Assembly: GCF_028641065.1 (NCBI RefSeq)
Contig: NC_073410.1
Coordinates: forward strand, 9,238,001-9,302,000
Direction of reading: 5' to 3'
Source: Leucoraja erinacea
Taxonomy: Eukaryota
Length of the DNA stretch: 64,000 bases
Both the position numbers and the translations under genes were made by a program. The notes below the pieces were generated by a model. That model was not told where the DNA came from. It made no database searches and saw only the letters and a list, made by a program, of their open reading frames with translations. Below, piece after piece: positions 6,100-64,000 of this stretch; the first letter of the stretch is position 1, and the number at the start of each line of letters is the position of its first letter.

Positions 6100-6310
6100 C
6101 TGCTGGAGAGACTCAACGGGTTGAGCAGTATCTGTGGTGAGAAGGGAATGGTCGACGTTTCTGAGAAGGGAAAGTAATTGAGACTCTCAATCCTGAAGGA
6201 GAAGCTTGACCCAAAACATCGACAATTCACTTCTTTCTACGGATGCTGCCCACCCCGTTGAATTCCTCCAGCAATTTGCTTTTTGCTGCAGATTCCAGCA
6301 TCTATAGTCT
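6100..6310. mobile_element. Fold-back element made of two inverted Penelope pLTR-like halves
   Basis: TGCTGGAGAGACTCAACGGG...GCAGTATC is imperfectly complementary to GATGCTGC...CCCGTTGAATTCCTCCAGCA. Same family as 32095 and 41006. Confidence 0.65.
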
Positions 6311-14629: not shown

Positions 14630-14781
14630 CTCTTGACCCAGATGCGCAGAGTCCCGTCTGAAGAGTCTATGATGTTCATTGCATCTGCATGTGAAATTCC
14701 ACTGCAAGATCTTCCATTGATGGTCAGGAGGGTATCATTCTCACGTAGCCCACCTCTACAAGCTTTCCCTCGCTTCCGCAC
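14630..14781 (-). CDS. SYNPO2L: SYNPO2L coding exon 2 (PDZ domain, C-terminal part; 152 nt)
   Basis: VRKRGKACRGGLRENDTLLTINGRSCSGISHADAMNIIDSSDGTLRIWVKR fits a PDZ domain. Acceptor ttccAG at 14783-14782; donor GTACTA from 14629. Confidence 0.93.
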
Positions 14782-21364: not shown

Positions 21365-21555
21365 TGTTTAGGAAGGAACTGCAGATGCTGGTTTACATTG
21401 AAGATAGACGCAAAATGCTGGAATAACTCAATGGGTCAGGCAGCATTTCTGAAGAAAAGAAATAGGTTACGTTTCGTGTCGAGACCCTTCTACATCCTCA
21501 GTCCGTTGATGTTGCCTGACCCGCTAAGTTACTCCAGCATTTTGTGTCTATCTTT
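21365..21555. mobile_element. Penelope pLTR-derived short element (partial fold-back)
   Basis: GGAAGGAACTGCAGATGCTGG...TGCTGGAATAACTC...ACGTTTCGTGTCGAGACCCTTC, then an inverted arm GTTACTCCAGCATTTTGTGTCTATC. Confidence 0.7.
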
Positions 21556-34509: not shown

Positions 34510-34628
34510 TGTAGGAAGGAACTGCAGATGCTGGTTACATACCGAAGATAGACACAAAATGCTGGAGTAATGCAGCAGCATCTCTGGAGAGAAGTAAGGG
34601 GGGTGACGTTTCGGGTCGAGACCCTTCA
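34510..34628 (-). mobile_element. Penelope pLTR-derived short element
   Basis: GTGTAGGAAGGAACTGCAGATGCTGG...GGTGACGTTTCGGGTCGAGACCCTTC. Confidence 0.75.
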
Positions 34629-35049: not shown

Positions 35050-35207
35050 GAAGATAGACACACTTAGCGGGTCAGGCAGCATCTCTGGAGAAAAGGAATA
35101 AGTGACGTTTTGGGTCAGACCCTTCTTCAGTCTGACCTGCTGATTTGCTCCAGCTTTGTGTGTCTATCTTCGGTGTAAACTAGCATCTGCAGTTCCTTCC
35201 TACACAT
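35050..35207. mobile_element. Penelope pLTR-derived fold-back element
   Basis: GAAGATAGACAC...GACCCTTCTTCAGTC...GTGTCTATCTTC...GCATCTGCAGTTCCTTCCTACAC. Confidence 0.7.
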
Positions 35208-36038: not shown

Positions 36039-37302
36039 AACCTGGTGTGCACAATCAAGTAAGATCAAATAGAACACGTTGTCCTACAACTTTAGACTGT
36101 GCACGCCATACGCAAGAAGAAGACGTTGTTAAAAGAAAGAAAGAATACATTTGTAAGGTGCTTTGCAGAACCTATGATTGCCTCAGTGCAATTTGCATCC
36201 ACTTTTGTGGTATAGTCACCTTTGTAGTTTTGATATTTAGTGACAATTAAGAATCGTTCCAATATTATTCCAGAATGGGGACTCGGAAATGAATTGAAAG
36301 CAAATGTCAGTATCCTCCTCCCCTCTTATCTCATGGAGGATTTATTTGGCATCTGACCTCCAAAATCTTTTGGCCGCTGCCCGCGTTAATGTTGCATGCG
36401 TGCCGAATGATTCAATCAGATCTAGCGAGTTTCTACATCATGTGCGAATATTCCCAATTACCAGCCAGGTTGACTAAATCAACGGGCTTGGCAAAGATTT
36501 TGCTGAAAATAATTCAGCTGGTCATGTGTGTATATCCGTGTTGAAGGATTCTGCTGGAGATGCATTGGAGCCGGGTGATATTGATTCCACGCGCATAGCC
36601 TCAGCAACAGGGTAAATCGATATGATACATGTGCAATCCTGAGAAGAGTTTGGCTCCTGCAAAATCCCCCGCGGTACGCACACGCCGCCGTTCAAAGTTA
36701 GTCTGACTTTACCGACCGCTTTGACACGTTCGGGGTCTTTGCCCCAAGTAATTTGAGATCAAAGTTTAAAGTACTTGGCCGGTGCGAAAACGGAATCGAG
36801 CATAATAGCAGTAAATTATGTCGAAATACGGTGATTGTGTGTGTGTGTGTGTGTGGCCCGAACTCCGTAAACTATTTGCAGATGAAGGCAACTTCTGGGG
36901 TGTCTCTTGGTATGAGTCTTTCTTTCTGGTAATCCCCTCCAATTTGGGGGGCAGTTAAGCGTATTTCCCTCGTCTACCTTGGTTTGAGGGTCTCTTTCTC
37001 GGCAGGGCTCTGAGCACGTATCTTTGGAAATGAGATATATCGCTATCGGTCGCCCCGCGCTCTCTCTCTCATTTCTCTGCGGGCTGGGGTCCAAAAGGGG
37101 GGAGGGGGAAGAAAAGGCTTTGCTCGGGTACGGATCTCAATGAGTTGGGGTCTACCTCTATGTTGCGGTGCCTACTTCTCGCCCCTACCCCACCACCTCT
37201 CTGTCTTGGAGTATCTCTCTTTCATCTGGGATCCCTCCTCCGTTGGGAGCTCTCCCTGACCGGGTGTGGGGCGGGGGTTAATGTGCTGGGCCGCTGTCCT
37301 AC

Positions 37303-37407
37303 CTTGGCGACTCGAAGCGGCATGTTTTGTTGGGATCCTCCATGTAGCCTGAAACCCCAGGGCGCGCCACCACTCAAGGTGACCAGGGTTTCTTCGCCGG
37401 TCCCCAT
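37303..37407 (-). CDS. SYNPO2L: SYNPO2L coding exon 1 (start codon, PDZ N-terminal part; 105 nt)
   Basis: MGTGEETLVTLSGGAPWGFRLHGGSQQNMPLRVAK has the PDZ GAPWGFRL motif. Donor AAG|GTAGGA at 37302; phase 0 matches exon 2. Confidence 0.95.
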
Positions 37408-37720
37408 GACCTCCTCGTCTCTTCAGCAAACGCTATGTCCCCGGGAGGTCTCCATAGCCCTGGTTCTCGCCATCATTCACATCTTGAGCGAGGTGACTGG
37501 TTGCGGCCGCCGGGAGGTCAGTGCGAGACACTCGTTTGTGCTCTCCTCCCCACAGTAAAGCAGCAACAAACGTAAGGGGCTCTTGGTTGAAAGCCAAATT
37601 TCAGCACATGTTACGTCAATCTCACAGCGCTACTGTGGAAAGATCCATAAGGAGAATGCAAATGCCTGAGTTAAGGTTTAAAACACCACTTTAAATGTCA
37701 GCTGAAGTGCCCCTTCTTGG
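37408..37720 (-). promoter_or_regulatory. Probable SYNPO2L 5' UTR and proximal promoter
   Basis: CpG-enriched region (about 36.4-37.6 kb) around exon 1. CRE-like TTACGTCA near 37611 and E-box CAGCTG near 37699. The TSS cannot be determined. Confidence 0.45.
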
Positions 37721-38799: not shown

Positions 38800-39560
38800 G
38801 TCCGATATCTACTGTTTCCGTGGTTCGATGTGTGGACTTTTATACATCGGCGAGACCAAACATTGACTGGGCGATTGTTTTGCTGAACACCTATGCTGGG
38901 TCTGTCTATACGAGGTTTCGGCCTGAAACGTTGCCTATTTCCTTCGCTCCATAGATGCTGCTGCACCTGCTGAGTTTCTCCAGCATTTTTGTGTACCTTC
39001 CATTTTCCAGCATCTGCAGTTCCTTCTTAAACACTGGGTCTATACGACATGGGCTTACGCGATCTCCTGGTTGCCAAACACTTTAACTCCCCTTCCCATT
39101 CTGACCTTTCTGTCCTGTGCCCCCTCTGATGTCAGATTGAGGCCAAACCCAAATTGGAGCACAAATTTTGCTTCGACAGCTTACACCCCAGTGGCATGAG
39201 TATTGATTTCCCTAACTTCAAGTAACGCTTGCAGCCCCCTCTTTCTCTCTCCATCATTCCTCCATCCTAGTCATTGTACTAGTCTCTCTCTCGGTGGGTT
39301 TCATTGAATGTATAACTTGTTTTCTCCTAGTCCGCAGCTAACAACGTACCACATTTCCTTGATCATCGTTAAGTTTGTCTGCATTTCTTTCATTCATCTG
39401 TTCTATATTTCTCTTTATCATTATCCATATCTCGCGTTGCCATTTCCCCTGACTGTCTGAAGAAGGACATATGACTAGTGTACTGGAGTCTGAAGCAGGG
39501 TCTCGACCCGGAATGTCACCTATTCCTTCTCTCCATAGATGTTGCCTGATCCGCTGAGAC
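38800..39560 (+). mobile_element. Penelope-like element relic: GIY-YIG endonuclease remnant plus 3' pLTR
   Basis: From 38807: IYCFRGSMCGLLYIGETKH*LGDCFAEHL. After a nested insertion: DLLVAKHFNSPSHSDLSVL...PSGMSIDFPNFK*. Downstream is CTGAAGCAGGGTCTCGACCCGGAATGTCACC. Confidence 0.85.
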
Positions 39561-39799
39561 CGAGGGTCACCAATGAGGTAGATAGTTGTTCAGGACTCTA
39601 ACTATGAACCAGTCCATTTAACACAACCACGGGGTCTTTCTTATAAATCAAACTGATCCCCATCAGCTAGATAGAAACAAAAGCTGGAGTAACTGAGTGG
39701 GACAAGCAGGATCTGTGGAGAAGGAATGGGTCGAGACCCAGTTACTCCGGTATTTTGTGTCCATCTTCGGTGTAAACCAGCATCTGCAAAACACATCCT

Positions 39800-40500
39800 T
39801 ATCGGCTTACGAACGGGGATGGTTGGGGATCAGGCCCTGCCGTGCTGTGTGTGTGGGGCCTGGGGCCGCCTCCCTCGACCGACGGCGGCAGCAACTCCTT
39901 CTCCTCTCAACGCCGGCAAATGGCGCCGGGCTTCACTGCGCGCAGTGAGCATGCGCCACACCCGGCAGCTTGTTGTGCGCCGTGACGCAGCGCGTGCGTC
40001 ATTGCGTCAGCACGGCAGGCGGGCGGGCGAGAGACGGACGTGGCAGCGAGCGGAGAGAGGCCTCGGGAAGGCGGTGAGTAGCCGGCGGAGTAGTCGCGGT
40101 CGCGGACCCGGCCGGGGGGGCTCGGGCTCAGGCTTTCAGCCGGCTCTGGCATGGACTGGACCACCGGTGGGCGCGAATGGCATAGGCCTAGGCCTTTGCT
40201 TGACGGTGTGAGGCCAAGGCTTAGCCCGATGTAGGCGGTGGATGGGCCGGGGCCGGAGACGGAGCCGGCGGCTGGTAGCTGGGGCCCGGCCCGGCCCCAT
40301 GCAGCCTGGGGCAGTCGTGAAGCGTTAAGTGGGCTGGAGCTTCCAGGGAATCGTCCCACGGGAGTGCCACAAGTACAAGGCCTCCACTCCCTCAGTTCAG
40401 GGCCTTGCCGGCGTTTCGTTGAAACAGGTTTGCGCCCAAAAGGCGGGTGAGGCCAAGTCTTGGGCCTGAAGAGACGGGAATGATGTTGAGCAGGATCCTT
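39800..40500 (+). promoter_or_regulatory. SEC24C: CpG-island housekeeping-type promoter of SEC24C
   Basis: Very GC/CpG-rich. YY1-like AAATGGCG (39918), NRF1-like GAGCATGCGC (39947), CRE-like TGACGCA/TGCGTCA three times (39983-40009), GC box GGCGGGCGGG, and GACGTGGCA (40037). Confidence 0.8.
40010..40073 (+). other. SEC24C: Probable non-coding first exon of SEC24C (5' boundary uncertain)
   Basis: Strong donor GCG|GTGAGT at 40074 within the CpG island. The ATG-containing exon at 52706 starts with an acceptor, so an upstream exon is required. Confidence 0.6.
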
Positions 40501-40884
40501 TGCTGGTTTCGACGCATTTCCGCATTTCCCCCCCCGATTCTTAACATACGCTGGACTCCTCCGCTGTACAATTTCCCTATTGAACCCTCTTGACCATGTG
40601 ATGTGCCATTGGTTGAGGCCACTTTATTTACTGAAGTTGTAGTATGAAATATTGTAGCGTATTTCAGTGCATCCTGGCGCATCAGATGGGGGTGTGATCA
40701 CCTGCAGTTGACGTTTTTTTACATTTGTTCTCTATCTCTCTACATCATCGTCTCTCTCTCGTTTCCCTTTCCCCAGACTAGTCTAAAACAGTCTCGACCC
40801 GAAACGTCACCCATTCCTTCTCTCCAGAGATGCAGCCTGTCCTGCTGGGTTACTCCAGTTTTTTGTGTCTATCTTCTTTTTTTT

Positions 40885-41345
40885 ATTTAGAGTCATAGAT
40901 TAAGACAGTGTGGAAACAGGCCCCTCGGCCCAACTCGCCCACACCTAGTCCCACTTGCCTGCGTGCGCTTGGTCCATAACCCTCCAAACCTGTCTTATCC
41001 ATGGTTACACAAAAAAGCTGGAGAAACTCAGCGGGTGCAGCAGCATCTATGGAGCGAAGGAAATAGGCAACGTTTCGGGCCGAAACCCTTCTTCAGACCG
41101 ATGGGGGGCGGGGGTGGGTGGGGACCTCCCACTGTCTTATCCATGTACCTATCCAACTGTTTCTTAAATGATGGGATAGTCCAAGCCTGAACTACCTCCC
41201 CTGGCAGCTTGTTCCATACACCCATCACCCTCTGTGTGGAAAATGTTACCTCGAGGATCTTTTCCCCTTCACCTTGAACCTATGCCCTCTGGTCCTCGAT
41301 TTCCCTACTCTGGGTAAAAGACTCTGGGTAAAAGTACCCGATCCA
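40885..41345 (-). mobile_element. CR1 3' fragment interrupted by a pLTR-derived element (about 41004-41131)
   Basis: Minus-strand peptide MGVWNKLPGEVVQAWTIPSFKKQLDRYMD. 14-bp duplication CTGTCTTATCCATG at 40990-41003 and 41132-41145. Confidence 0.85.
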
Positions 41346-41407: not shown

Positions 41408-42875
41408 ATATTTTTATTTGACTTTCACAGCAATTTGCATACATACAATGGTAACAGACAGTGCCGGTCAAGGCATAATTGTGCAACAGTATGTAAGCGA
41501 CCCTCAAAGCCCTTGCCCTTACCCACCTTCAACCCACCCGAATCGGGTCGAAACCAAACAGGAACAAACAACACTCACATACATACACATCCACACAAAT
41601 ATGGTAAGATAAACGAAACAAAAAGTACTTATATAAAAAAAAGGTCACTAATAACAGTAATTAAATAAATAAGTGGGGGGTGGGGGGTGTTAAGGGGAGA
41701 GCAGCTGCAGTAGAGCAGAACAATGGTGGAGAGCACTCAGTCTTCTTCCGAGTCCAGGGACAAATTGAGAGAGTTAACAAGTTCCAAGAAAGGGTTCCAT
41801 GTATCTAGGAATGTCTTGGTAGAGCCTTTGAGAGAGAACCTAAGTTTTTCAAACTTTAAATTGTAAAGCACCTTCTTAATCCAGCGGGTGTGTGTCGGGG
41901 GACAGGTGAGCCTCCAGCAAGATCAGTCTCCGGGCTAACAAGGTTGTAAAAGCTAGAACCCGTTTCACCGCAACAGAGAGGTTGGTGTTGGGAGGGGTAC
42001 CAAAAATGGCTGACAGTGGGTTTGGAGGAATAGTCTGGCCGTAGGCTCTGCTTATCAAGTCGAAAGCACTCCTCCAAAAGGCTGCTAGCTTAGGGCAAGA
42101 CCAAAACATATGGCTATGGTTGGCAGGAGATTGATTACATCTGTTGCAGGTGTCCCTAACAGCGGGGTAAATTCTAGATAATCTTGCATTTGTGTAGTGG
42201 ACTTTGTGAAGGACTTTGCATTGGATTAGGCCATGACGGGCACATATGCAGGAAGAATGGGTCAAGTCCAAGGCAGAGTCCCATTGCTGGTCTGTTAGTT
42301 TTCTATTCAGCTCGCCCTCCTACGCAGCTTTTAATGAGGAATGAGGTTTCAATATAAACGACCCTAACAAGTTATACAAAACAGAGATGCATTTCTTCCG
42401 GTTGGGATCTAGAGCTAAGATGGTATCGGTCAGGGTTTCAGGGGGGCGATTTGGGAAATGGGGGAATGTCTTCTTCGCAAAATCCCTAATCTGGAAAAAA
42501 CGAAAAAGGTGGGAGTTTGGGAGGCTATAGTTGGACGAGAGCTCCGCAAAAGACGAAAAGATGCCATCCTTGTATAGGTTTTTGATACTACTGATACAGT
42601 TGCTATGCCAGGTTTTGAATGCGTGGTCTGTACTTGAAGGTTTAAAGATGTGGTTTTTAAGCAGTGGGGTCAAGATGGAAGGGCCTTGTAAACCAAGTTT
42701 TTCCTGAGTTGACTCCATATCTTGAGCAAGAGGGATGAAATTGAGCCTGCACCCACAGATGTTATAGAAGGGGCAGTTGGGAGCATAGGACAGACCGCAA
42801 CGGGAGATGTGAACTCGCCTTTTCCATGTGTACCCAGGTCGGTAGGTGGTCGCAATCATCATTCATCCAATACAG
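41408..42875 (-). mobile_element. L1-clade LINE, 5'-truncated (ORF2 C-terminus plus 3' UTR)
   Basis: ARHGLIQCKVLHKVHYT...CNRCNQSPANHSHMFWSCPKL (CCHC knuckle) and FFQIRDF are typical of fish-type L1 ORF2; frameshifted. Confidence 0.9.
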
Positions 42876-47374: not shown

Positions 47375-47775
47375 CATGCAGTGCTGGAGGTACACAACAG
47401 GTCAGGCAGCAGCATCTCTGGAGAACATGAATAAGTGATGTTTCAAGACCCATCTTTAGACTTGACCCGGAACATCACCTATCCGTGTTCCTGACCGGCT
47501 GTGTTACTCCAGCACTTTGTGTTCTTTTGTGTATTAACCAGTATCTGAGTACAGCAGATTCTGGAATCTTGAGCAAACAAAAAAGTGCCAGAGGAACACA
47601 GCAGGTCAGATGGCATCTGTGGAGGGAAACTGACAGATGACACATCTGGTCGGAACCTTTCTTTAGACTCTGAGAAGGATCCTGGCACAAAATGTTGTCT
47701 ATCCACAGATGCTGCCTAACCCGCTGAGTTCCACCAGCACTTTTTTGTTTGCTCAAAATTCTAGCATCTGCCATC
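47375..47775. mobile_element. Two adjacent fold-back pLTR-derived elements (about 47375-47545 and 47552-47775)
   Basis: GCAGATTCTGGAATCTTGAGCAAACAAAAAAGTGC pairs with GCACTTTTTTGTTTGCTCAAAATTCTAGCATCTGC. GTGCTGGAG...GAACATGAATAAGTGATGTT pairs with AACATCACCTATCCGTGTTC...CTCCAGCAC. Confidence 0.75.
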
Positions 47776-49959: not shown

Positions 49960-52742
49960 TGGGCTGAAGATGCAGATTTGAGGTTATGTTCTTCCTTTAT
50001 TGTGCTGACAGAAGAGGAATAATGAACTTTACTAATATCTCTGGGACAAATATGAGACATTGTTAGGTCCTGCTTGCATAAAATAATGGGCTATTTCAGG
50101 TCTCAAGTTCCAAGATGAGTTGATTTGACAAATATTTGACAGGCGCTTGACAACATTGATACATGTGAAGTTATGTACCTTAATTGGGAAAAGCCAGAAG
50201 GATAGAGTATCACTTACATAGTGATTGTTAAACAGCTGGATGTCCTACTACATTGAGTAACCAAACATGCAGGTAAACCAAGCTGTTAAGGCAAACGGCA
50301 TCTTGGCCTTCACCAGAGCTCAATGTATTATCCGGGATTGGAGTATTGTGTGCAATTTGGTCACTGTCTTGGAGAGATAGAGTGCAGAGAAAATGTTCTT
50401 GGCAGATTCCCAGAATGGTGGGATTATTGCATAAAGTCAAATCGACTTAGTCCTTATTCATGAGAGTTTGGAAGAATATGGATTTATTTATTTAAAAACT
50501 GACATGTTTTGGCAGGAAGTGTGCATGGAAGATAACATGTTAGACTTTTCTACCACAAACCTTTGAATTGCAGAATATATTAAAGAAGCAACCAGATTTC
50601 TATGCAGGATGTGAAATGTGATATATGGCCAGCGTGGGAATATTGTATTGAGATAGTGATTTTTGAATGGCAGAACTGTCTTTAATGGCCCAGTTTTGTT
50701 TTGTATTTCTAAGATCAATGGCTAGTTGCTTCTGCAAGAACAGTTATGTTTACATTGTTGGGGCACAGTACTCAGCTCACCTACATATGTGAATGTTGTA
50801 CTCTGTAAAAGAACGGTACACTAACCACATTAATAACGTGTGACACAGAAGGTTGCCGGGTATGAACCTTGTTGCTGGGTACTTGACTCAGTTGTCGCCT
50901 GTGGTTCACTGATAAGTTGAAATACTTGAGAAAGATAGGATTCTGACAGAATTTTAATGGGGATTGCTTAAATCTGAAGTACTTTGATGCTTAGTGGTTA
51001 TCTTGTGTTATTGTCTGTAAGTTTGCATTTTAAGGTCCAAATGAGTAGATATTGAGCATGTGTATGATTGAGCTTTGTGGATAGCTTCCAATAAATCCAG
51101 GTGCCTAGTGCTGTAAATATACTTAGACTCATCTATTACCTCGGTATACAATAACCTACAATAGCTTTAGTTTAAAAAGTGCCTTGATTTTTAATTTTGT
51201 GTTTGCTTTCAAATCTTTGTGGAACACTTCTAGTCTTGCAGACTCTGACATCTCCATTTGTTTGGTGCAAGCATCTAGTACATTCATTATCCACATTTCT
51301 TTACAAGTGCCAACATGGACTGCATGCAACATAGGCTGTATGGCTTGGAATTGCCAAAGTATTTTAATGTCTAAGAAAATGAGACCAAACCTATACCGAA
51401 AGCAGCCTAATTTTGGAAATACAACCAAATTATTTTCAGCATCTCATGGCTGATTACTGAATATTCTGCAAAATATAATCTGGGGTTTTCTTACATTTTG
51501 GTACTATTGTATGAGAATAATGCTGAAGCAGCAGTTCGGCAATAAAAGTTGAATTATCAGCCAATCGCCAACATTTCACTCCCACTTCGTTTTGGTTCTG
51601 TTGTACAGCATTATTCAGTTTCAGTGTATTAAATACCGCAGGATGTGATGTAATGCAAGCCACAGGTTCATATGCTTGTGCCCTCTGCAGCTTGTTGACA
51701 AATTACTCATTTCCACTGATACATCCTAGGATTGCAGACAATTACCAAAGTCCACATCTGTTTGTTATCAAATATGAGTAATGATCATGCAGAATATATT
51801 GCTTTGTCTTGTAACCGCAATAAGATTCTTCAATACCATTAGAATATGGAAAGTTACCATTGTGTTCATAGTTGAATGCTTTCTCTACTTCCTTGTTGGA
51901 TAGCTGTGGCAAAGTCCACATTGTACAAAATTGTATGGCTGTCTGTACGCTAATGGATGCAGATTAATGAAGAAATCCAGATGGATTTAGAACTGACAAA
52001 TACATAATATATATTCCTTTGTCTCATTTTCAACTCTGATGAAGGTATTTCATTCTGAAGCATTGATTTTCTTCTCCAATCGCTGAGCACTTCTAGAATT
52101 TTGTGTTTTTGATTTAAATTTTAATGCCTGCAGTTTTGATTTTCAAATACATTCAAGCTGATTTAAAGTTTATCTTGTACTCTGTTCATTTAAGCTGTTT
52201 AATGCTGTTCCAGAGTTATTGCTTTTGTAGTGTGATTTCACTGACAAAGATAATACAATACAGCTATATAACATACCATTTCCAGAAGGTCTCTGTCATT
52301 TTAAATAACATGCTGTTACTCAACCTCTCATTATCTAACTAACCGGTGTAGGATGGAACTGTATATGCTGGTTTAAACTGAGGATAGACACAAAAAGCTG
52401 GGGTAACTCAGCAGGACAGGCAGCATCTCTGGAGAGAAAGAATGGGTGATGTTTCGAGACTGTCTGACTGGGGAACTGGTAATGCCATTGTGATACACGG
52501 TTTAGAATTGGTGTAAAGCTGCTGGTTAAAACTGGATGGACAGTCATTGCCAAAGCCTGTGTGTGCAAACAGTACGGTGCACTAATTTGTCAATGCAAAA
52601 ATTGGGAACCTTGCAAGGTGAACTTGCACATTTCCTTTAATGAAAAATAGTCAGTGGAATGGAAAGAATATGACCGAATAAATGTTCTTTCTGTATTAAT
52701 TTCAGGTAACATTAGTTTGGGGATGAACTTTGTGAAATAAAG

Positions 52743-52914
52743 ATGAATCAGCAAGGTCACATGGCATCTTATGGACAGCCCCAACCTGGCTACCAAGGGT
52801 ACCACCAGCAGCAGTTGGCTTATGACAACCAACACATGACCGGTGTCCCACCCCCTCAATATGGACCATACAACGGACCCGTCCAAGGCTACCAACAAAC
52901 TGCTGTGCCGCAAG
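52743..52914 (+). CDS. SEC24C: SEC24C first coding exon (exon begins at 52706)
   Basis: MNQQGHMASYGQPQPGYQGYHQ...YGPYNGPVQGYQQTAVPQG resembles the SEC24C N-terminus (GQPQP, YNGPVPGYQQ). Acceptor tttcAG at 52704-52705; donor G|GTATGT at 52915. Confidence 0.88.
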
Positions 52915-54581
52915 GTATGTCATCAAATAACACAAAACGTAATTGATGCAATGTTGAGCAGATGCAAAACCTTTCTTTATGTAATTTTCCTTGGATTTCT
53001 AAGATGTTGACATTCACTGCTTTCAAATATGAAGTGCGGTCATGAATACATTCTTTTGAAGTTTTATTTGTTCCATCTGCATTCTTGATCCACCGTGAGT
53101 ATTTGACTATCAGGCAGATTGAAGACATTCTGGAAATACTTGTATTTTTATCAAGCTGTGCAACTGCAGAAATATGTTTCAGTTTTTGCAGACTTAAACC
53201 AGCATTTTACTTAAATTTGTTTAAAGAATCTATGTTGGCCACGTTTCAGGTTGTTGAATTAACTCATTTGAAATTTGGCTTTAACCTACTGCCGTCATGA
53301 TAAGATGCAAACTGAGTATGAAATACTGATTTTTGAGGTTCAACAAAGATAATGTGCCAAACTAACAAAAAGTTCATGAAAAGGAATCGGGTGCTTTTTG
53401 CAGAAATAATATTAAACTGCAGACAAATGCATTTTTATGAATTTAAATGCATCGCTAAAATGGTCCTTTCTGGCAGGCATTATACACTCCTCACCCCTTG
53501 CGTTTGGCAAAGATGTAAAATATATCCATGTTCAAGAGTGATGGGGGGGGGCAAATTAGCACAGGATGATTTTTATTGGTTTGCTTATGCTTATCGAAAA
53601 AAAATTGTTTCTGAAACAGTCGTTGCTTTTCACTTTTCCTTGTTCGACATTTATCCACGATTCCTCGGTTGTCAAATGTTCTCACTTAATTTATTTGGCA
53701 GTGCTTTAAATTGTACCTAAATATCTCCAGCAGCTGTTCTTTGTTTCTTCAATATTGGAAATAAAATGGGTTATGCAATGTTGATTTTCTTTTCTAGCCA
53801 AAGTGTAATCTCTATCGAATCCCATGGTTTTTGTTAGTGCAGTTTCATGTACAAGTAAAAAAAAATTTAGTTTAAAATTGAATAGAAGACTAAGAGGGGA
53901 GAGCTCTTAATGGTGCTTTATATTACTTTATCTGTGGTCCAGCGGAAAGCAATCTGTTTGTTAATGATGCATTAAGGTAGATTTTGAAAGGATTGCCTCT
54001 GAAGAAATTATGTCATTTTTAAGCAGTGAACAGTCTAATAATGAAATAACATCCGTAATTATGGAAAGATTGCAGTGGTGCACTTCTCTATCTCAAATTG
54101 CCAACACTATTTACTTTGTAGGCATTGTTAATATCACAACTGTGCATGCAGAGCATTTTATTATTCTGTTGCTTTCACACTTCTGTTCTTGAGGAGGAAT
54201 TGTGAGAATCTAAGGCTATTAAATTCGTATTTGTTTATTAGCTTTGGGCATGTGGGTATCTTCTGTTTGTACTTTCCTCCGCATTGGTTTGGTCGGGTCA
54301 CTAGGCTGGAATCCAGGGTCCTGGCCATGTTGATACGGAACCGCAGATGCTGGAATCTTGATCAAACCCCAATGTGCTGGAGGAACTCAGCTGGTCAGGC
54401 AGCGTCTGTGGGGGGGAATGGACAGGTGATATTTTGGGTCAGAATCCTTCAATTAATTAAATTTGGGTATGTATAAATCTGCGATTAAAGAAGACCTGCT
54501 GTCAGTAATAGTACACTAATTTACAGAATGTTGCTTAAAAACTCTTCTAATATCCTTCAACTTGGAAATGTCATCTTCATT

Positions 54582-55022
54582 GTTTAGTTTAGACATACAG
54601 CGTGGAAGCAGGACCTTCGGCCCACCGAGTCCACACCGACCAGCGATCCCCGCAAGTTAACACTATCCTACACACACACTAGGGACAATTTACACTTATA
54701 CCAAGCCAATTAACTTACAAACCTGTACGTCTTTGGAGTGTGAGAGGAAACCAAAGATCTCAGAGAAAACACACGGGGTGAAAGTACAAACTCCGTACAG
54801 ACAGCACCCATAGTCGGGATCGAACCAGTGTCTCCGGCGCTATAAAGGGCCTGTCCCACTTACGACCACTTGCTGGCACCCGTCATAGTCGCAGCAGGTG
54901 GCCGAAATTTTTCAACGTGTTGAAAATCAAGCGGCGACCAGAAAAAGGTACGACCCTTTGGGCGACTACTCGCGTCCATGCAGGCGTCGCCCCGTGACAT
55001 TAAGGCTGCGCCACCATGCCAC
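54582..55022 (-). mobile_element. HE1/V-SINE-like SINE with a Harbinger-like fragment (about 54846-55000) inserted in its tRNA head
   Basis: B box GGTTCGATCC on the minus strand near 54817-54826. The insert begins TAA-AGGGCCTGTCCCACTT and the SINE resumes at TAAGGCTGCGCCACC. Confidence 0.8.
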
Positions 55023-56890
55023 CATTTAGTCAGCAGATCATTAGTCTTCCCTTTAGTCTGCAGGTCATTCCAGAACCTCACTTAACATATCCCTATCAAA
55101 ACTACTTGATTTAGGAAGAATTGAAGATGAGCAGTAATTTCTCGTTTTGCCCAATCCCATAACTATGTTTAGTGCCTGTAACCTTACAGAGCAAGATTGT
55201 GTTTTAAATGGTTTTACATCTTCAATTTGCTCTTCATAAATCTTTGTATTGGTTGCAAAATCCCGTTTTGTAAAAATTTATGAATTAAAATTGAGCCCTG
55301 ATAGATTATTTTTAGTTGGTCATTTTATTAATTGCTACATTTTTAATTAAATTCAATGAAGATTTGACGTTTTGACTTCTAATGCAAGAACTGAATAATG
55401 CTTTTATTTCTGTAATGCCATTAAATTTTCATCCTGCTTTATCGCATGAAGCAACTTTCCATCAACCCTTTGTTTAGAGCATTTCAATGGGCTATAGTTG
55501 TGGAATTTTTTAATTGAGTTTAATTTTCCACACTTGTGACAACACATGGCAAATTGTATGTTGCCCATAAGTCAGCATTTGCACTTGCCTTCTGGGCTGG
55601 GCTTGCAATGTCGGATTCTCTCCACTACACAGTGATTTTTGCCGTGTTCAAGCCAGACAAGTAATCTTGCCGATAAGAACATGTTTACTCACAACTCTCC
55701 AAGGGAAACATTGACTGATGGCGAAATCACACCTTCAGCCTTGATGTCTGTTGCAGCAGTCAGGGTTCTGCATTTCCTATAATGAATAAAAGAAAAGATT
55801 ATATCTTGAAGAATGAAAAGATTATTTGGCAAATGCACTTTAACAATTATGTCCTCATGCAAAGCAAGTTTAAAAATATGTCAATTTCCTTTTCCTACCC
55901 TTGGGTTTAGAGTTTCCATGAAAATGAATTGGCTGCAAGACCTGATTCGAAAGTTTAAAACAGCTGTTATTTTACCGTGTATAAACCGTGAGATATAGTT
56001 TTTGTTTTGTGTGTTATCCAGGCCAATCATTCCATAAGTCATGTGATCTCTGGTGCAAACACGAAATGAAACAAAATGCAGAATATAGGGTGACAGCAAC
56101 AGAAAAATGCAGATTAAATTAAAGTGCAAGGGTGTAATGATGTAGATTGGGAGAATAAACTAGTTTTGCTTAGTAGACTGGGCGGCATCCACAAATCTGC
56201 AATTTCTTGCGGCTTTGGGTATAGCAGCTGCCATACCCAGCTATAATGCTGACAGAAAGGATGCAAAAAGTGCATTGGAAGTGACCATTTTATATTTTAA
56301 GTCTGGTGGGTTAGAATTTTTAATTAAGTTCAAGTTAGAATTTCTACATAATGTTCATCTTTCATTTTTTAAAATAAGTTAGCACAATTTGGGAAGCATT
56401 TTTTTAAGTGCTTTTGTTGTGTGTAATTATCCCGACAACTGCTTTCATTGCAACGAACACTTTCGGGGATACACCTGTATCTCGTTATGGTATTTCACGT
56501 GACCAATGATTCAAGCCTTCTTCATGTCCCCTGTTTTCTGTTGAGAAATTCAGTTATATTTTTCTAGTTTATTGAGGCAAAGGCAAACAGCTCTGTATAA
56601 ATTGACCCAAATTGTAACTAATTTTAAGCGTTTTTGTTTTAAATGATAGACATACCAAAATTGTCAATTCTTTACAAATACCTGGTTTATTTGAATCTGG
56701 AACCATGCCATACTTGTTCAAAAATTAAATTGTAGGATTTCCAGTGTTCATCATTTTATGCAATTTCTATTTTTTCTAATTTGAAAGGAATGTTAAACCT
56801 CTTGATTTTTGAAATAATGTAATCTCATAATTAAATAGATGCATTTATTGTTCTTTGTATTAATTAAAATTCTGTCATTGTTTCTTGTAG

Positions 56891-57023
56891 GACCTTTGAG
56901 GCCAGTACCAGGATCAGCCCCAACCTCAATTCCTCCCTCAACAACTGCACAGCAGCCAGTATATAATCAGTATGGGCAGGGAGATGTACACAATGGTCCT
57001 GCAGTACCCGAGCAGATGCAAAG
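56891..57023 (+). CDS. SEC24C: SEC24C second coding exon (133 nt)
   Basis: GPLRPVPGSAP...YNQYGQGDVHNGPAVPEQMQR (compare QFGQGDVQNGP...QMQR in SEC24C). Acceptor ttgtAG, donor GTTTGT; phases 1 and 2 are compatible. Confidence 0.9.
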
Positions 57024-57373
57024 GTTTGTTGAAGTTTATAACTTGTAGGCTGATAGATTAGAGGATAGACTGAAACGCATTGAGACAAGAGATAGAAGGA
57101 TCTTTCTTCAGCTTTGCCAAACATCAATTTACAAAATATGTACAGACCGGTAACATGATTTAATGAAATGCAAAACTGAACGTTGTTATACAAATGGGTG
57201 CTTTGGAAACTTTATTATACAGGGTAAAAATATAACCATGTCCTTTATGGAAAATATGCAGCATTATGTTGGACCAAGGATGTAACGTTCTTCTTCATGT
57301 AATGTGCATAGATTTTTGTGTGTAACACATCTCGTCATCCAGCTCATGCCAAACAACGAGCATTCAGCACACT

Positions 57374-57680
57374 TTTAGTTTAGAGATACAACACGGAAGC
57401 AGGCCCTTTGGCCCACCAAGTCTGCACCGACCATAATCCCTGCACATTAACACTATCCTACACATGCTAGGGACAATTTTACACTTGTTGTACCAAGTCA
57501 ATTTAACCTAAGTACCTGTGTCTTTGGAGTGTGGGGGGAAACCGAAGATTTCAAAGTAAATCCACACGGTCATGGGGAGAATGTACAAACTCCGTACAGA
57601 TGGCACCAGTAGTCAGGATCGAACCAGGGTCTCTGGCGCTGCAAATGCTGTAAGGCAGTAACTAGACCGCTGTGCCACCG
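57374..57680 (-). mobile_element. HE1/V-SINE-like SINE, near full length
   Basis: On the minus strand: A box TGGCACAGCGG, B box GGTTCGATCC, central core, and CR1-like tail ending TCTCTAAACTAAA. Confidence 0.85.
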
Positions 57681-59141
57681 TATCATCACTTTCTTATCAT
57701 GAAGATCCACTTCAGAAGCATTTCAAATAAAAGCAGCTGCTAATGGCTAGTTTTTAATGCTTTATTTATAAAAATGGCTTGATATTGGGCCAACAGTGGA
57801 ATGCACTTCAGATGCTGCATGTTTTGGTATTCAAATCAGCATATGACAGGCTGCTGCAGGGTATCTGAACTTGATGCTTTTGTGATCATTAGTTGCCATG
57901 ACTTCTATTTACAGTGAAGGTATTTTTTTTTAATATGACAAAATTATGCCAATCTTAATGTAACCACTATGGGATAAGATTAGCTGCCTGGGAAGACTAG
58001 AGAGATATACCAAAAAAGAGGTGGGAAACAATTCAGCAGCTCATTTAAAGTTTGCATATTTGTCATGAAGTTTGCTTCTGAGTACTCAGCACTTGAAATG
58101 TATCTTCCACAAGCAACTTGGTCACAAGGTTAGCTTCCAACTTCATCTCCCTTCAAATAATAAATACCATGTCCTGTTCATAGAAATGAAAGTCGCGTAT
58201 CCCGGTTTACTGATTGTTAAAACTGAGTTTGAATGCCTGCTAATGTTTCTGCCATTCAAATAATCTCTAAATTGAAATATGAAAAATTATACTGTTAATA
58301 ACTTTTGAAGATGAAAATGCTAAGAATCACTGAGATACATACCGTTAATTTAATAAATGTTAATTACTTACAACTCATCCTCTGACTCCCAACACACGCC
58401 TCCCTCAGTGGTTCCTCGCTGAAATGAATTAAGTTTCTTATTCTGCAGCACATCTCAGCTGATGCAGGTTGACCAGACAGAATCTTCTGCTGTGCAGCTT
58501 GAAAACACTGAGATTGATACTCCACATTTGTATCATGAGTTGGAACGACTACAGGGAGGACATGTCAGGAAGTTTGGGACTTCAGTTGACACCGGGTTAC
58601 ATTCAAGCCCTAAATTTTCTGACAGTTGTATGAGGACATTTGGACAAGGTGTCTGCTGGAATTTCTCAGTAAACATTTAAAGTATTTAGAATAGTAACAT
58701 TGAATTAAAAACTTTGAAATGAACCTGGCTATTCTCAAAAATGACTTAACTGGTAGATCCCTTTCTATCAGCTTTGTTCTATTCAAATGAATAGGTAGTT
58801 CCCACAATAGGTGTAATGTGTCATGATTTTAGTAGGTAATTTATGTGTGGTGTAATTTGCTGGGCAATTGCACCTGTTTCATGCACTGCTGAAGTCCATG
58901 AAGAGGCCAGCATTGGAACACAGTTGAGAAATGGTTTACAAACATGCAGTATGTTTGAAGCTTTGAGTGGGAATGCTGAATGTTCGCATTTATGCACTCA
59001 ACCCCAGACACTTTACAGGAAGGAAGTAAATTTGCCTGCCTTCAGAGTAACTGTTACAGTTCAAACTGTGTTTTATCCCAGTTCATACTCTGGCTCTGCA
59101 GTTAAAAACATTCCAAATTAACTGTTGAAATCTTTTTGTAG

Positions 59142-59320
59142 GGTTCCACAGTCTCAGCAATACATGCCTGGGAATACACTTCATTCTGGTAGTCAACCGA
59201 TGCCATATCAACAGTATGCACCCTCGCTTAGTCATGCTCAACAGTTACCAAACCAGATGGCCCACATGCAGATCACTGGAGTTTCCAGCAACAGTGCATC
59301 GCCTGTCAGCCAAGGTTACG
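59142..59320 (+). CDS. SEC24C: SEC24C third coding exon (179 nt)
   Basis: RVPQSQQY...QLPNQMAHMQITG...QGYG. Acceptor ttgtAG, donor GTAGGT; phases 2 and 1 are compatible. Confidence 0.87.
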
Positions 59321-60916
59321 GTAGGTAAAGTTAAAATGATCTTATACAGTTGAAGTTGTGAAATAGTCGTGTACCTCATAGGACAATCATTTGCCATTTC
59401 TGAGAACAGCATTCCTAATATTTTTAAGAACATCATAGAATTCTCTGGGTAATTTGAGCAGCAGAGGTTGCAATACTGGGCAGTGGAGGTTGGAATTGAA
59501 CCCAGGTCATTCTGCTAGCTGGGCACCACCAAGTTATTTTTATGAGAGCCTGTCAAGACAGAGTGAAGAATGTTTTATTGTCATGTGCACTGGGAGAGGA
59601 ATGATGAAATCCTTACTTGCTGCAACTTTACAGGCTTATTAATGTAAGAACATAACATAAATGTATAGTATCAAAATGCAATCATTTACTTGATGATACT
59701 GGATAACCAATAGTGTAACAGACGTATTGTCGAACAAAAACAAAGTCCATAGCAGATCATTGCTGAGGTAGGGCTGTGCAGTATGGATCAAAAGCCTGAT
59801 GGGAAGAAGCTATTCTTGAACATGGGTGTTATGGTTCTCGGGCTTCAGAACCACCTTCCCAATAGTAGCAGTGAGATGAGTGTTTGACCAGAGTGGTGTA
59901 ATGCTGGTCAGTGACCAAGAAGAAATTTGTGTCACTGTTGCAACCGCAGGCCCTGGAGAACACGAGCCGTCTGGGATGATATTAACGTAATTACATGAAT
60001 TAATGCTTTCAAAAGTACCTGTGCCCCTTGGTGAGGGTGTTGCTTTAATTCATTTGGCTTTTATTTGCGTGTAAATTCGTGGAATATTTTATTTGCATGA
60101 AATTCACCATCTATCGCCTTAGAAAATAAGTGGAATTGTAAGTAAGTGTCTTTATGTAGGGTCTTTGTGCTAATGTATCCAAAGTTACACTGTTGTTTTG
60201 TTTTGTTGGGGTAAATGTATACAAACCGTAATGAAAGATTTAGACTGAAATGCGTGCCTTTGAAAAAAGGAACAAGGTTTGAAGAAAGAAATTTGAGAAC
60301 TTAATTTCATGTGAATAATGAAAAGCTCAGAACTGAAGGACCATTAGCATTTTGGATGTGATGGGACAAGAGAAGATTGCAAAGAAGACGATATAAACCA
60401 CGGAGGAACTTGAAAGCAAAGATATTGGACAGCAATCTGGTTATTTGAGAGGCTATAGAAGTTGAATGGAGCTGGTGAGATGGAGTTGGATGTGGGTCAT
60501 TACCATAAATGTAGAACTTGCAGTTTCTGCATATCTTATTGAAGTGCATCATTTTGATGATAATCAATTCTGTCCCTTTAGGAATTGATGGGGGGTGCTT
60601 TGTCCCTCTCAATTAATGGAGTTCTTTACTATTCTGACTACATTTCTAAATTGTCACCACTTTCAGGAAGTAATCCCACTTTTAATTGATATACTAGACA
60701 ATTTGTGCTGCACTTTTCTCCCTTTTAAATCACAAATGTTCATATCACAAGCATTTGGTGCCTGGTTAATAATGAAGGCAAGGTGCAAATGCCTGAAATG
60801 GTTATGAAATGTATGTAATTCTTTCTGCCTCATTTGTGAACTATATTAACTCGCTGGCTGTTTTTACTTTTGTTTCTGTATGAATCTTTATGACTGTAAA
60901 TATATTCTATTTTCAG

Positions 60917-61321
60917 GCCCGCCTGCTTCTCGTCCTCCAGCTGCAACTAGTTTGCCGCCTGTGGGTCCAGCAGCGTATTCTGCAGCGCCTCAGAATATTC
61001 CCTCAAGCACACCGCAAGATAATAGCCATCCTCAGCATCCTTTTCCTGGGCAACCCTCCCCAGTGTCAACCTTCTTGTCTCCTCCCACATCAATAGGTCT
61101 TACGGGTGTGATTCATCCTCCTTCAGTTGGAATGCAAAGACCTCCTACGATGCATGGACAACCTCTGCCAGGGCAGCCTCCATCGGGACCTTATCCACCC
61201 CAGCCTAATCACAGATCTTTGGGTCCACAGCCTGGTATGCCAGGACCAATCCCTGGTGCTCCAACACAGGGCTTTCAAATGCATCCAGCACCTAATCAGG
61301 GATTTGTACCACAACAGAACG
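60917..61321 (+). CDS. SEC24C: SEC24C fourth coding exon (405 nt, Pro/Gln-rich)
   Basis: GPPASRPP...QPNH...GFVPQQNG. Acceptor tttcAG, donor GTAAGC; phases 1 and 1. Confidence 0.9.
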
Positions 61322-61851
61322 GTAAGCTTTTATGCAATACATAGAACAAAGTTTTCTCTGATCGATATCTATGCTGCAGAATGATTTTCAGAACTGTACT
61401 GCCCAGGAATGAAAATATTTCTGTCTCAACCACATGAGCCCCACTTTCAAATATGAGTTCTAAGTAAAAGCAGGAAGGGAAGTTGAGCAACTGAATATGT
61501 TTTCCCAGCAAGATTTTGAACGTGCTGCCTAAAAGGGCTGTGGAACCAATCCAGTCATACATTATAATGAGGAACTGGATGGATGCATTACACAATTCTG
61601 GGGAAGATGCTCTGAAGTGGGGCTCAAAAGATAATTTTTTTGAAAAATTATGCCGTCTAGATGTTACAGATGCCTACCTTGCTGTGTACTTTTTATTAGA
61701 TATGCATTCTGCTTAGTCTATTTTATAAGGGTGACTATCCAATTTGTCAGTGAATTTGCACAAAAGCAAATTGTCGTTGTAAGAATGGATAGTGGTGTTC
61801 TGTAAAGTTGGGATATGCTAGTCTGCCACTTACCTTGATGTGATGTTCTAG

Positions 61852-61976
61852 GTTCCTTTGCGCAAATGAGGGCGCCCCAACCAAATTATGCCGCACCTTC
61901 CACTGGAGCACCAAATTACAGCAGTCAACCTCCACCTCAGCAGAAACGATTGGACCCGGACAGCATTCCAAGCCCT
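61852..61976 (+). CDS. SEC24C: SEC24C fifth coding exon (125 nt); the gene continues beyond the window
   Basis: GSFAQMRAPQPNYAAP...QQKRLDPDSIPSP contains the SEC24C/D hallmark RLDPDxIPSP. Acceptor ttctAG, donor GTAAGC. It is absent from the ORF track because it is short. Confidence 0.93.
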
Positions 61977-62687
61977 GTAAGCACACTGGTTTTTTTTGTT
62001 TTTGTTATTCTCCCTGTTGTGTTCTAATGTTTGTAGAACTGCTCAGTAAATGTTCTCACTTTCTGCTCGAAATTGGTTGAAAAGGATTCACTTGCATGGA
62101 TATGTTGGAGATTTGAATGTAAACCACCCCCCACCCCCCAAACTTTTTTCAATGTGTTTGAACCCATGTTCACAAGTCGTGTTTTTTTAATATAGCCTGT
62201 ACGTGTACGTAACCAGCTTGTGTGTACGTAACAAGCTGTGTCTAGTAATAGCAATTCCTGCACTAGCAAATTGTGTTACTTGGATCCAATTTTCTTCAGA
62301 ATAGTTTGGAATTCTGGTGGTCTTACGCTTGTGGGACAAACTAGTTCATTCCTGATCTGGTATCAATATCTTGAGAGTACGAGATGTAGAAAGAATGAGA
62401 TGTAGAAAGAGTGAGGCTGTTAGACAAGGCAGCAGGATTGGACCTGAAATGCCAAGATAGGTATTGAGGCAAGGTAATAAACAACCTTGCTATAAGGTGC
62501 TTTAAACTTGTAATCCATTGTGGCACCATTACAGGGCTGATTTATTTCTGATATATCAGGTAATGTTTAATTACCATTGTAGATTTTACTACATCTGTTA
62601 GTTGAATACCTAGCATCCATGTATTATACATGTTATACTAGTATTATACATGTTATTTTAACGTACTCAAAAATAATTTTAACAATA

Positions 62688-62850
62688 AAACATAGAAAAT
62701 GGGTGCAGGAGTAGGCCATTCGGCCCTTCGAGCCTGCACCGCTATTCAATATGATCATGGCTGATCATCCAACTTGGTATCCTGTACCTGCCTTCTCTCC
62801 ATACCCCCTAATCCCTTTAGCCACAAGGGCCACATCTAACTCCCTCTTAA
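62688..62850 (-). mobile_element. Young CR1 3' end
   Basis: Near-exact reverse complement of 8862-9025; TTAACA occurs on both flanks. Confidence 0.88.
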
Positions 62851-64000
62851 TTAACAGTTGCGCTGTTGCTGACCACATGAATTTAGATACCCAAATCAGG
62901 CTGTATCAATATGTCTGAAAACGATCTAAGATATATGTAATATGTCCAGGGTAAAAATGCAGCATTCCCAATCATTGCAGATGTTAAAAATCTAATACCA
63001 AAAGTGCTAGAAATACTTGCCAATAAACCAATATTGAATATTTTGGCACCTGTAACTATAAGACTCCTGAAGACCTAAAGTTCACTTTTCAGGCTGAGCT
63101 TTTAAGTAGTTTAGGTGGACATGAAGCATGTGAGTTAATTGGTGATAATGCTTAGAAGAGTCTCTGGAAAGAGTAGTAGAACTGTGAATTTGATAATTAT
63201 TTTTGAAACCAATGCAATAATGGGGAGATTGTTGGTTCTTTGTGAATAGGTGAGTTTGAATGAAGTTATTTCTGTTTGTGCAGTTGTCCTCAAGACTTTG
63301 GATTGAGTGTTTGCAGAATTTATGAAAGCAGATGATTCAAAGACCTTGAATCTTTGTTAGGGAGTGTTTAAATTATACTGCTCTTAATAATTTTTCTCAG
63401 CTTTCTACTTTAAACAAATATTTTCAGATCAGTAAATGCGTAGATTAGTGGTGATTTTTTTATAATTGAAAAGGAAATGGTTGAAAAGAGAATTCTGCCA
63501 GTATCCCAACACTTTTGCATAGGTTGCCATAGATATACATCGATCTCAGGGAAAAGAGGTACTATTTTACTTTAAGCAGTTGCAGTGATTTTCTTTGTGT
63601 TTTGCACCATTTGGAATTAATTCTGGTGAGGATATTTTAATTATCGAAATTTCCCTACCCAGGAGATGAATGCGGTTGCTATGTTGCAAACATCCTTTCA
63701 CAACTAACCATTTAATCATACATGGTCGGTCTAATGTGTTTCGCTTTCTCAACTCATTTTTGTGTCTGGGAAACTGGCATGAATGAAAGAAACATTAAAA
63801 CCACACCATATAATTTTCAATCGTTTTTATTAAATTGCACTTAATTTTAGCACATTTTCTGAATTAATATTGAAAAGCACATAATTGAAGAGCTAACACG
63901 TTTATAGATGGTATTATTTTCCCAGAATATTTTCTGGAAATGTTGATTTTCTTTTAAGGCAGTTAAGAGGTCTTGCATTTGGTATTGACGTGTTTAGATA

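What the first reader, a model, noticed from the sequence alone, without database searches (positions are those of the whole stretch)
41004..41131. Abundant short Penelope-derived elements carry a minimal hammerhead-ribozyme-like core
Seen (minus strand, 41099 to 41066): GGU-CUGAAGA-A-GGGU-UUCG-GCCC-GAAA-CG-UU-GCC. This gives the CUGANGA and GAAA core boxes, a stem II capped by UUCG, a 3-bp stem I (GGU/GCC) and a vestigial palindromic stem III (AACGUU). A second variant has GGGU-CUCG-ACCC-GAAACGUC-ACC (for example 34603-34628 minus and 40792-40812 plus), with U-G versus U-A variation that preserves stem II. More than a dozen mostly degenerate copies occur in this window; this one has a 14-bp TSD. 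Established: Penelope-like elements carry minimal type I hammerheads in their pLTRs that are proposed to cleave as dimers. Inference: a retrozyme- or SINE-like non-autonomous family has seeded ribozyme-like motifs through host introns on both strands.
Basis: partly seen in the sequence, partly recalled or inferred. Interest (0 to 1): 0.7.

Follow-up and report, generated by a model that had tools for sequence, protein, structure and literature searches.

The report
Penelope retrotransposon stub with minimal hammerhead
This is the clipped end of a known kind of jumping gene (a Penelope-like element) carrying its already-described minimal self-cutting RNA motif; an estimated million such stubs litter this fish genome, they decay like dead DNA and likely do not cut host RNA, but their shared start point likely records where the element's RNA begins.

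Summary
The motif and the 14-bp TSD are real, but this is not a retrozyme or SINE family. It is the 3' end (pLTR) of an autonomous, Neptune-type Penelope-like element (PLE). I found its ~3.85-4.0-kb RT + GIY-YIG unit in tandem copies. Sampling 1.11 Mb gives about 1.0 million pieces genome-wide, about 140,000 with intact core boxes. Related PLEs from other organisms carry a hammerhead at the same place, with different paired stems (13 of 34 loci, controls 0), so the motif is a genuine PLE hammerhead. Inserted copies show no preferential core conservation (6.2% vs 7.3%, p=0.18) and no compensatory change in stem II. The active fold is predicted disfavoured, and this copy is likely antisense in a SEC24-family intron. 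One informative detail: 30 of 74 non-inverted young copies start at the hammerhead's 5' edge, only 2 at its cut site. The copied RNA is therefore likely uncut and may begin there. The scan found this family before in other windows of this genome. Known kind; modest interest.

The parts
41004..41131 (-). Whole insertion: 5'-truncated 3' end (pLTR, short 3' end, no tail) of a Neptune-type Penelope-like element
   Evidence: 97-99% identical to the closest genome copies; many of these continue upstream into a GIY-YIG ORF end
41066..41099 (-). Minimal type I hammerhead motif: 3-bp stem I, CUGAAGA, extra A, 4-bp stem II with UUCG loop, GAAA, ACGU palindrome, predicted scissile bond between 41069 and 41068 (after GUU)
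   Evidence: fits the published consensus of PMC4209133 supplement; cleavage untested
41100..41125 (-). C-rich end of the element's 3' UTR; the 5' junction lies about 29-30 nt upstream of C3, a minority class among copies
   Evidence: x-drop alignment to long copies
41126..41131 (-). 6-7 extra bases at the 5' junction; possibly a micro-inversion of a 3' UTR motif (inferred)
   Evidence: sequence against long copies
41004..41065 (-). pLTR downstream of the hammerhead, ending at the first (+94) of the element's two 3' ends
   Evidence: 3' ends cluster near +94 and at +129 (29 of 107 exactly at +129)
40990..41003 (.). Target-site duplication, copy 1 (14 bp)
41132..41145 (.). Target-site duplication, copy 2 (14 bp)
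40890..41290 (+). Older dispersed repeat interrupted by the insertion (the target); its family was not identified
   Evidence: joined flanks align continuously to other copies, 75 of 125 hits span the junction

Best explanation
The insertion is the clipped 3' end of an autonomous Neptune-type Penelope-like retrotransposon, likely pasted by the element's own endonuclease and reverse transcriptase from an RNA that was likely not cut by its hammerhead, and it is likely inactive where it sits. SHOWN: the parent unit is 3.85-4.0 kb from hammerhead to hammerhead (hammerhead, short end +94, tail end +129, in-frame ATG about +162, RT, CX4CXXC linker, GIY-YIG, CT-rich 3' UTR). Stubs number about a million, carry 9-15-bp TSDs, end at two fixed 3' sites, mostly start at the hammerhead's 5' edge, and decay evenly. 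INFERRED: as for Anolis Poseidon, the protein binds RNA downstream of the tail, nicks target DNA and starts reverse transcription internally at the +94 or +129 site. On an RNA that begins at the initiator-like motif just ahead of the hammerhead, the copy runs off after 95-135 nt and gives a solo stub. Longer copies, including this one (to about -30), need a tandem, read-through or circular template. In the parent lineage the hammerhead likely cuts slowly, as a dimer or with help from the protein, to process tandem transcripts. Stubs lack the sequence downstream of the tail and a partner ribozyme, so they likely neither propagate nor cut host RNA.
For: Parent: GIY-YIG ORF end upstream of the motif (PF01541 E=0.004, below Pfam's cut-off), RT (PF00078 E=8e-6, below cut-off), 1,580 homologues at E<=1e-20 with RT domains, full tandem units in L211, L212 and L215. 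Genuine hammerhead: 13 of 34 related PLE loci from metagenome contigs have a min-HHR 92-272 nt after the ORF, about 7 distinct stem sets; antisense and ORF-interior controls 0 of 34. Uncut template: of 74 non-inverted young copies, 30 start at -6..+2, 11 at +3..+13 and 2 at +26..+30 (scissile +28); the position is the same for short and long 3' ends (median 0 vs -1). Possible cap trace: an extra G precedes the start in 14 of 30 and 8 of 13 copies (p about 0.03 each, post hoc). Neutral decay: core 122/1969 vs control 142/1944 substitutions, p=0.18; essential G12 is A in 59 of 199, a CpG rate. Folding: stem II probability <=0.05 and hammerhead fold 1.7-6.6 kcal/mol above the MFE for this copy; double-hammerhead -11.7 vs dimer MFE -24.8. 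Literature: monomers inactive and dimers weak (PMC4209133); Anolis HHR protein-assisted, not needed for insertion, unprocessed RNA the dominant substrate, internal initiation needing 172 nt of ORF (PMC11167929).
Against: No RNA 5' end was mapped; the reads laid show no place where many molecules begin. In 30 loci holding the element's 5' region, about half of the copies that reach the hammerhead edge continue upstream, and several template jumps also fall at -3..+5 (read by eye, output partly cut). That fits an RT pause as well as an RNA end. The extra-G excess is weak, post hoc, and absent in copies starting at C3 (15 of 43, p=0.31). The junction set includes a few copies of sister families whose upstream sequence was not in the reference panel, which slightly inflates the peak. 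Cut-and-religated RNA would leave the same genomic record as uncut RNA. Folding programs ignore tertiary contacts and protein help. Neptune is assigned by linker motif only, without a tree.
Confidence: 0.8

Rival explanations
1. The stubs are ordinary premature 5' truncations: RT starts at the 3' pLTR and stalls or jumps at a structure or protein roadblock at the hammerhead's 5' edge (for example the predicted helix between the purine-rich core and the upstream pyrimidine tract), not at an RNA end.
For: Folds of long copies pair GAAGAAGGG with the upstream CU tract. The peak tails from +11 to -6. Template jumps and inversion junctions fall in the same zone.
Against: The edge is fairly sharp near -5/-6, an initiator-like YCAGTCT is kept across families whose EN domains differ widely (initiator consensus recalled), and there is an extra-G excess. 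In Anolis, initiation needs sequence downstream of the tail, which a terminal 3' pLTR lacks.
Confidence: 0.35
2. The short copies are a non-autonomous SINE- or retrozyme-like family with its own master genes, spreading through ribozyme-made circular RNAs.
For: Stubs outnumber long copies (39 of 507 pieces have EN sequence within 600 nt upstream), have their own TSDs (31 of 292 vs 2-4 in shuffled pairs) and are abundant in poly(A) RNA reads. Vertebrate retrozymes derive from pLTRs, including in one chondrichthyan (bioRxiv 2026.07.22.740005).
Against: 5' ends are ragged, every diagnostic variant examined also occurs behind an EN ORF, only 51 of 507 pieces have a same-strand neighbour within 150 nt, and no unit starts at the scissile bond in excess. 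Retrozymes are defined by tandem units each holding a complete hammerhead.
Confidence: 0.08
3. Some intact copies act as cis or trans ribozymes on host pre-mRNA; this copy has an improved 3-bp stem I.
For: 38 of 199 full-span copies keep core, stem II, palindrome and stem I, roughly 75,000 genome-wide by extrapolation; family RNA is abundant, so partners exist in trans.
Against: This copy is antisense to the SEC24-family gene and 3.6 kb upstream of the SYNPO2-family ATG (exon 1 inferred). No sense-strand copy in either gene within the window keeps an intact core; orientation is 14 sense vs 13 antisense (counted). Decay is neutral and the fold is disfavoured.
Confidence: 0.07

Closest known systems
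Minimal type I hammerheads in pLTRs of metazoan PLEs: Xena, Poseidon, Neptune (Cervera and De la Pena 2014, PMC4209133; text parts 1-2 of 4 and supplement file 2 part 2 read)
   Same: CUGANGA, extra nucleotide after A9, G10.1-C11.1, GAAA, palindromic ACGU, NUH; located in the pLTR; mostly single truncated copies; pairs on opposite strands.
   Different: Among the shortest stems listed (I 2 bp, II 4 bp). About 140,000 intact cores estimated here against about 4,000 and 9,000 reported for coelacanth and Xenopus (descriptors differ). No shark or skate term in the searched supplement file; file 1 could not be searched.
EN+ PLEs of the Neptune clade (Craig et al. 2021, PMC8557442; passages)
   Same: RT then C-terminal GIY-YIG with CCHH, CX2-5CxxC linker, partial tandems, inverted 5' copies, 30-40-bp optional tail, heavy 5' truncation.
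   Different: No tree was built, and Nematis shares the linker. The extreme stub number is specific to this genome.
Poseidon of Anolis carolinensis, PAc (Frangieh et al. 2024, PMC11167929; parts 1-2 of 4)
   Same: Hammerhead at the ORF's 5' end, two 3' ends bracketing the tail, no RNA-seq ends at the cut site.
   Different: PAc's ORF starts inside stem II; here the first in-frame ATG is about 160 nt downstream. PAc lacks the Neptune linker. Its activity was tested; this one was not.
Metazoan non-LTR retrozymes (PMC7229834, passages; bioRxiv 10.64898/2026.07.22.740005, parts 1-3 of 5, supplements not seen)
   Same: Type I hammerhead, pLTR ancestry, non-coding.
   Different: Retrozymes are head-to-tail arrays, typically with canonical hammerheads, that make circular RNAs. 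These are dispersed solo or head-to-head stubs with TSDs.

Membership tests
Minimal type I hammerhead of PLEs | Core boxes CUGANGA and GAAA, U16.1-H17, extra nucleotide before stem II, G10.1-C11.1 | tested here: met
   consensus
Minimal type I hammerhead of PLEs | Palindromic remnant of helix III allowing a dimer | tested here: met
   ACGU in all four subfamily consensuses
Minimal type I hammerhead of PLEs | Located in the pLTR of a PLE | tested here: met
   about 130 nt after the GIY-YIG ORF stop and again at the 5' end of tandem units
Minimal type I hammerhead of PLEs | Stems kept by compensatory change | tested here: inconclusive
   Seen between lineages (but the descriptor demands pairing); absent among copies of this family (10A/17T 5 of 317, p=0.23)
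Minimal type I hammerhead of PLEs | Self-cleavage as dimer or with protein | not testable with these tools
   folding predictions only; RNA-seq libraries unsuited
EN+ Penelope-like element | Single ORF with RT and C-terminal GIY-YIG (CCHH) | tested here: met
   all copies inspected carry stops or frameshifts, longest open stretch 800 aa
EN+ Penelope-like element | Partial tandems forming pLTRs, inverted 5' copies, 30-40-bp tail | tested here: met
   tandems; 166 of 507 pieces head-to-head; tail +94 to +129
Neptune clade | CX2-5CxxC linker between RT and EN | tested here: met
   C-X4-C-X2-C in L061, L064, L066 translations; feature from PMC8557442
Neptune clade | RT phylogeny | not tested
   no clade-labelled reference sequences at hand
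Non-LTR retrozyme | At least two tandem units, each with a complete hammerhead | tested here: not met
   solo copy with TSD; only intact core in the window; 51 of 507 pieces have any same-strand neighbour within 150 nt
Non-LTR retrozyme | Expressed as small circular RNA | not testable with these tools
   only poly(A) and single-cell Illumina runs were laid
SINE | Own master lineage with a fixed 5' end and head distinct from the partner element | tested here: not met
   ragged 5' ends, no non-PLE head, variants shared with long copies; no tree built

The most novel reading that the evidence does not exclude
Most of the million stubs are 'strong-stop' run-off copies of the first 95-135 nt of a capped PLE RNA whose start sits on an initiator immediately ahead of the hammerhead. 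The genome then holds a million-fold in vivo record that PLE reverse transcription initiates internally on uncut RNA, and that the hammerhead is a normally silent switch 30 nt from the cap.
Probability: 0.5. Interest if true: 0.55.

Novelty: new member of a known kind. Interest (0 to 1): 0.3.

Why it matters
As a motif it is ordinary: minimal hammerheads in PLE pLTRs have been in print since 2014. Its value is as a large natural data set on an open question, what the PLE hammerhead does and what RNA is copied. Junctions at the ribozyme's 5' edge and not at its cut site extend the in vitro Anolis result (unprocessed RNA is the substrate) to genomic insertions, and they predict a testable RNA start. 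It also warns that motif scans in this genome will return on the order of 10^5 hammerheads that evolve neutrally.

Tried and rejected
Rfam scan: no hammerhead family at E<=5. Compensatory stem II change among 326 copies: none above non-partner controls. U17 as CpG decay: rejected, 23 TG vs 2 CA vs 8 CG in the main sub-lineage shows a master-level change. Length-based truncation: rejected, same 5' position for both 3' ends. Splicing at the AG just before the hammerhead as the source of the 5' edge: no shared exon in the extra bases of 31 TSD-flanked copies. A donor-like site after the tail turned out to overlap the ORF's ATG. RNA runs: no RNA holder listed among indexed runs. Four raw-read runs were laid at 1-5% of each run; no begin/end pile-up, most reads only 90-95% alike, fragmented libraries, so not informative on cleavage. 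They gave near-zero depth on unique sequence at 31-50.9 kb, so host exons were not confirmed. No match in phages or PDB sequences. The ESM Atlas gave no result. Long-context dimer energies are not comparable and were not used. Literature searches found no paper on hammerheads in skate or shark PLEs or on junction clustering at the hammerhead edge; subscription papers, Repbase, Dfam and the bioRxiv supplements were not searchable and may hold this family.

Full report
Positions written +n or -n count from the hammerhead's C3 (window 41096, minus strand) as 0; the predicted scissile bond lies between +27 and +28.

1. Observation. The motif is as described. The 14-bp direct repeat flanks a 128-bp insert. 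With one copy removed, the flanks rebuild a continuous older repeat (75 of 125 hits span the junction). A family HMM finds 31 pieces in the window, but only this one keeps both core boxes and stem II. Rfam does not detect it. A structure descriptor gives 75 hits in 111 evenly spaced 10-kb samples (1,109,900 bases) against 3-6 in five shuffles; all but 3-4 belong to this family.

2. What it is. The closest genome copies (30 loci kept of 40 scored) have variable amounts of upstream sequence. In many it is a CT-rich 3' UTR and the end of a GIY-YIG ORF. Longer copies add an RT domain and a C-X4-C-X2-C linker, the mark of Neptune and Nematis PLEs (PMC8557442, passages). Two copies that ran on past the tail led to the element's 5' part and to tandem units of 3,846 and 4,002 nt from hammerhead to hammerhead, with a first in-frame ATG near +162. 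All units inspected carry stops or frameshifts. The named relatives of highest identity are chondrichthyan (59-63%), so the host is likely a cartilaginous fish. The window copy is thus the 3' end of this element, cut at about -30, with the short (+94) 3' end.

3. Abundance and anatomy. The HMM finds 507 pieces in 1.11 Mb and 0 in reversed sequence, about 1.0 million genome-wide (bootstrap 0.86-1.16 million). The samples come from large contigs only. Of the 507, 166 are head-to-head pairs, 39 have EN sequence within 600 nt upstream, and 51 have a same-strand neighbour within 150 nt. TSDs of 9 bp or more occur in 31 of 292 candidates against 2-4 in shuffled pairs. The 3' ends cluster near +94 and at +129, the PLE tail.

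4. Is the hammerhead real and selected? Between lineages, yes. Of 80 metagenome loci encoding relatives I examined the 36 whose match reaches the ORF end; 34 had enough downstream sequence. Thirteen carry a min-HHR 92-272 nt after the ORF, in about seven different stem sets, while antisense and ORF-interior controls give 0 of 34. The descriptor demands pairing, so position and controls are the independent part. Those relatives mostly have 3-5 bp in stem I; the four subfamily consensuses here have 2. Among inserted copies there is no selection. In 199 full-span copies the ten non-CpG core positions differ at 6.2% and ten invariant control positions at 7.3% (p=0.18), and G12 decays at a CpG rate (59 of 199). 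No stem II pair shows co-occurring changes above non-partner controls. U17 is a master-level variant, not CpG decay. ViennaRNA gives this copy a stem II probability of at most 0.05 and puts the hammerhead fold 1.7-6.6 kcal/mol above the MFE; the double-hammerhead is 13 kcal/mol above the dimer MFE. This agrees with published behaviour: monomers inactive, dimers weak (PMC4209133, parts 1-2 read), and cleavage only with protein in Anolis (PMC11167929, parts 1-2 read).

5. Where copies start. In 107 young copies (at least 86% identical over the 3' part; copies starting after about +50 excluded by design), the 74 non-inverted ones start as follows: 15 upstream of -12, 4 at -12..-7, 30 at -6..+2, 11 at +3..+13, 2 at +14..+25, 2 at +26..+30, 10 at +31..+47. 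The peak does not move with the 3' end, so it is set by position, not length. There is no excess at the scissile bond, so the inserted template was uncut or religated. A few sister-family copies inflate the peak slightly. Just ahead of the core lies a conserved YCAGTCT that resembles an initiator (consensus recalled), and an extra G precedes the start in 14 of 30 and 8 of 13 solo copies (p about 0.03 each, post hoc; not at C3 starts, 15 of 43). With the Anolis finding that RT starts internally and needs RNA downstream of the tail, this fits run-off from the RNA's 5' end. Stalling remains a serious rival, since template jumps and inversions also cluster there. The window copy itself passes the peak and belongs to the minority.

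6. Host context. A SYNPO2-family gene lies on the minus strand (ATG 37407, PDZ exon 14626-14841, large exon 1234-4230). A SEC24-family gene lies on the plus strand (first coding exon near 52743; Sec23/24 domains just beyond the window). A CpG island with a donor-like site near 40074 suggests a non-coding first exon, which would place this copy in SEC24 intron 1, antisense. RNA reads did not confirm the exon. Within the two genes, copies are 14 sense and 13 antisense, and no sense copy has an intact core (counted). Family RNA is abundant in poly(A) libraries (17,178 of 12.9 million reads in X23), with no begin/end pile-up, but those libraries cannot show ribozyme ends and may come from a related species.

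7. Verdict. A new member of a known kind: a minimal PLE hammerhead in a Neptune-type element, spread as neutral stubs. It is not a retrozyme or SINE by the tests run. My searches found no paper on this family or on junction clustering at the hammerhead edge, but Repbase, Dfam, subscription journals, the bioRxiv supplements and supplement file 1 of PMC4209133 were not seen. The scan reported the same family several times in other windows of this genome; those notes are not independent support. Other papers seen as passages only: PMC3846280, PMC2377424, PMC6155905, PMC7229834.

Noticed in passing
window 1234-4230 (-), 12756-13880 (-), 14626-14841 (-), 37225-37422 (-): SYNPO2/SYNPO2L-family gene; the large last exon holds a long (V/A)MSPPP-type tandem repeat expansion (about 2576-3221) in a 999-codon open frame.
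   Followed up: partly
window 39500-40500 and 52705-64000 (+), continuing in L069: CpG island and SEC24-family gene divergent from the SYNPO2-family gene; first non-coding exon inferred only.
   Followed up: partly
window 21410-21547, 35057-35163, 47380-47522, 47578-47748, 6094-6278: Head-to-head inverted pLTR pairs forming 100-200-bp palindromes; a third of sampled pieces genome-wide are like this, often centred on natural palindromes at about -1 or +16.
   Followed up: partly
L181-L210, downstream of position 1560: Most loci that hold the element's 5' region jump after 50-300 nt straight to the 3' UTR or pLTR, deleting the ORF; this looks like frequent RT template switching between the two ends of the RNA.
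   Followed up: no
L179 (G000:C36:5000001-5010000): Cluster of short internal tandem duplications of the hammerhead region within several copies.
   Followed up: no
TTCG subfamily, +10..+24: The UUCG variant creates an alternative 6-bp hairpin that sequesters the GAAA box (probability up to 0.54 in short contexts).
   Followed up: partly
window 41879-42862 (-): LINE fragment with a zf-RVT domain (PF13966 E=5e-5), about 750 bp from the insertion.
   Followed up: no
P0061 and P0118: PLE ORF pieces appear inside database proteins named as host genes (a kinase-domain isoform in Hypanus, XIAP in Biomphalaria); probably annotation read-through.
   Followed up: no
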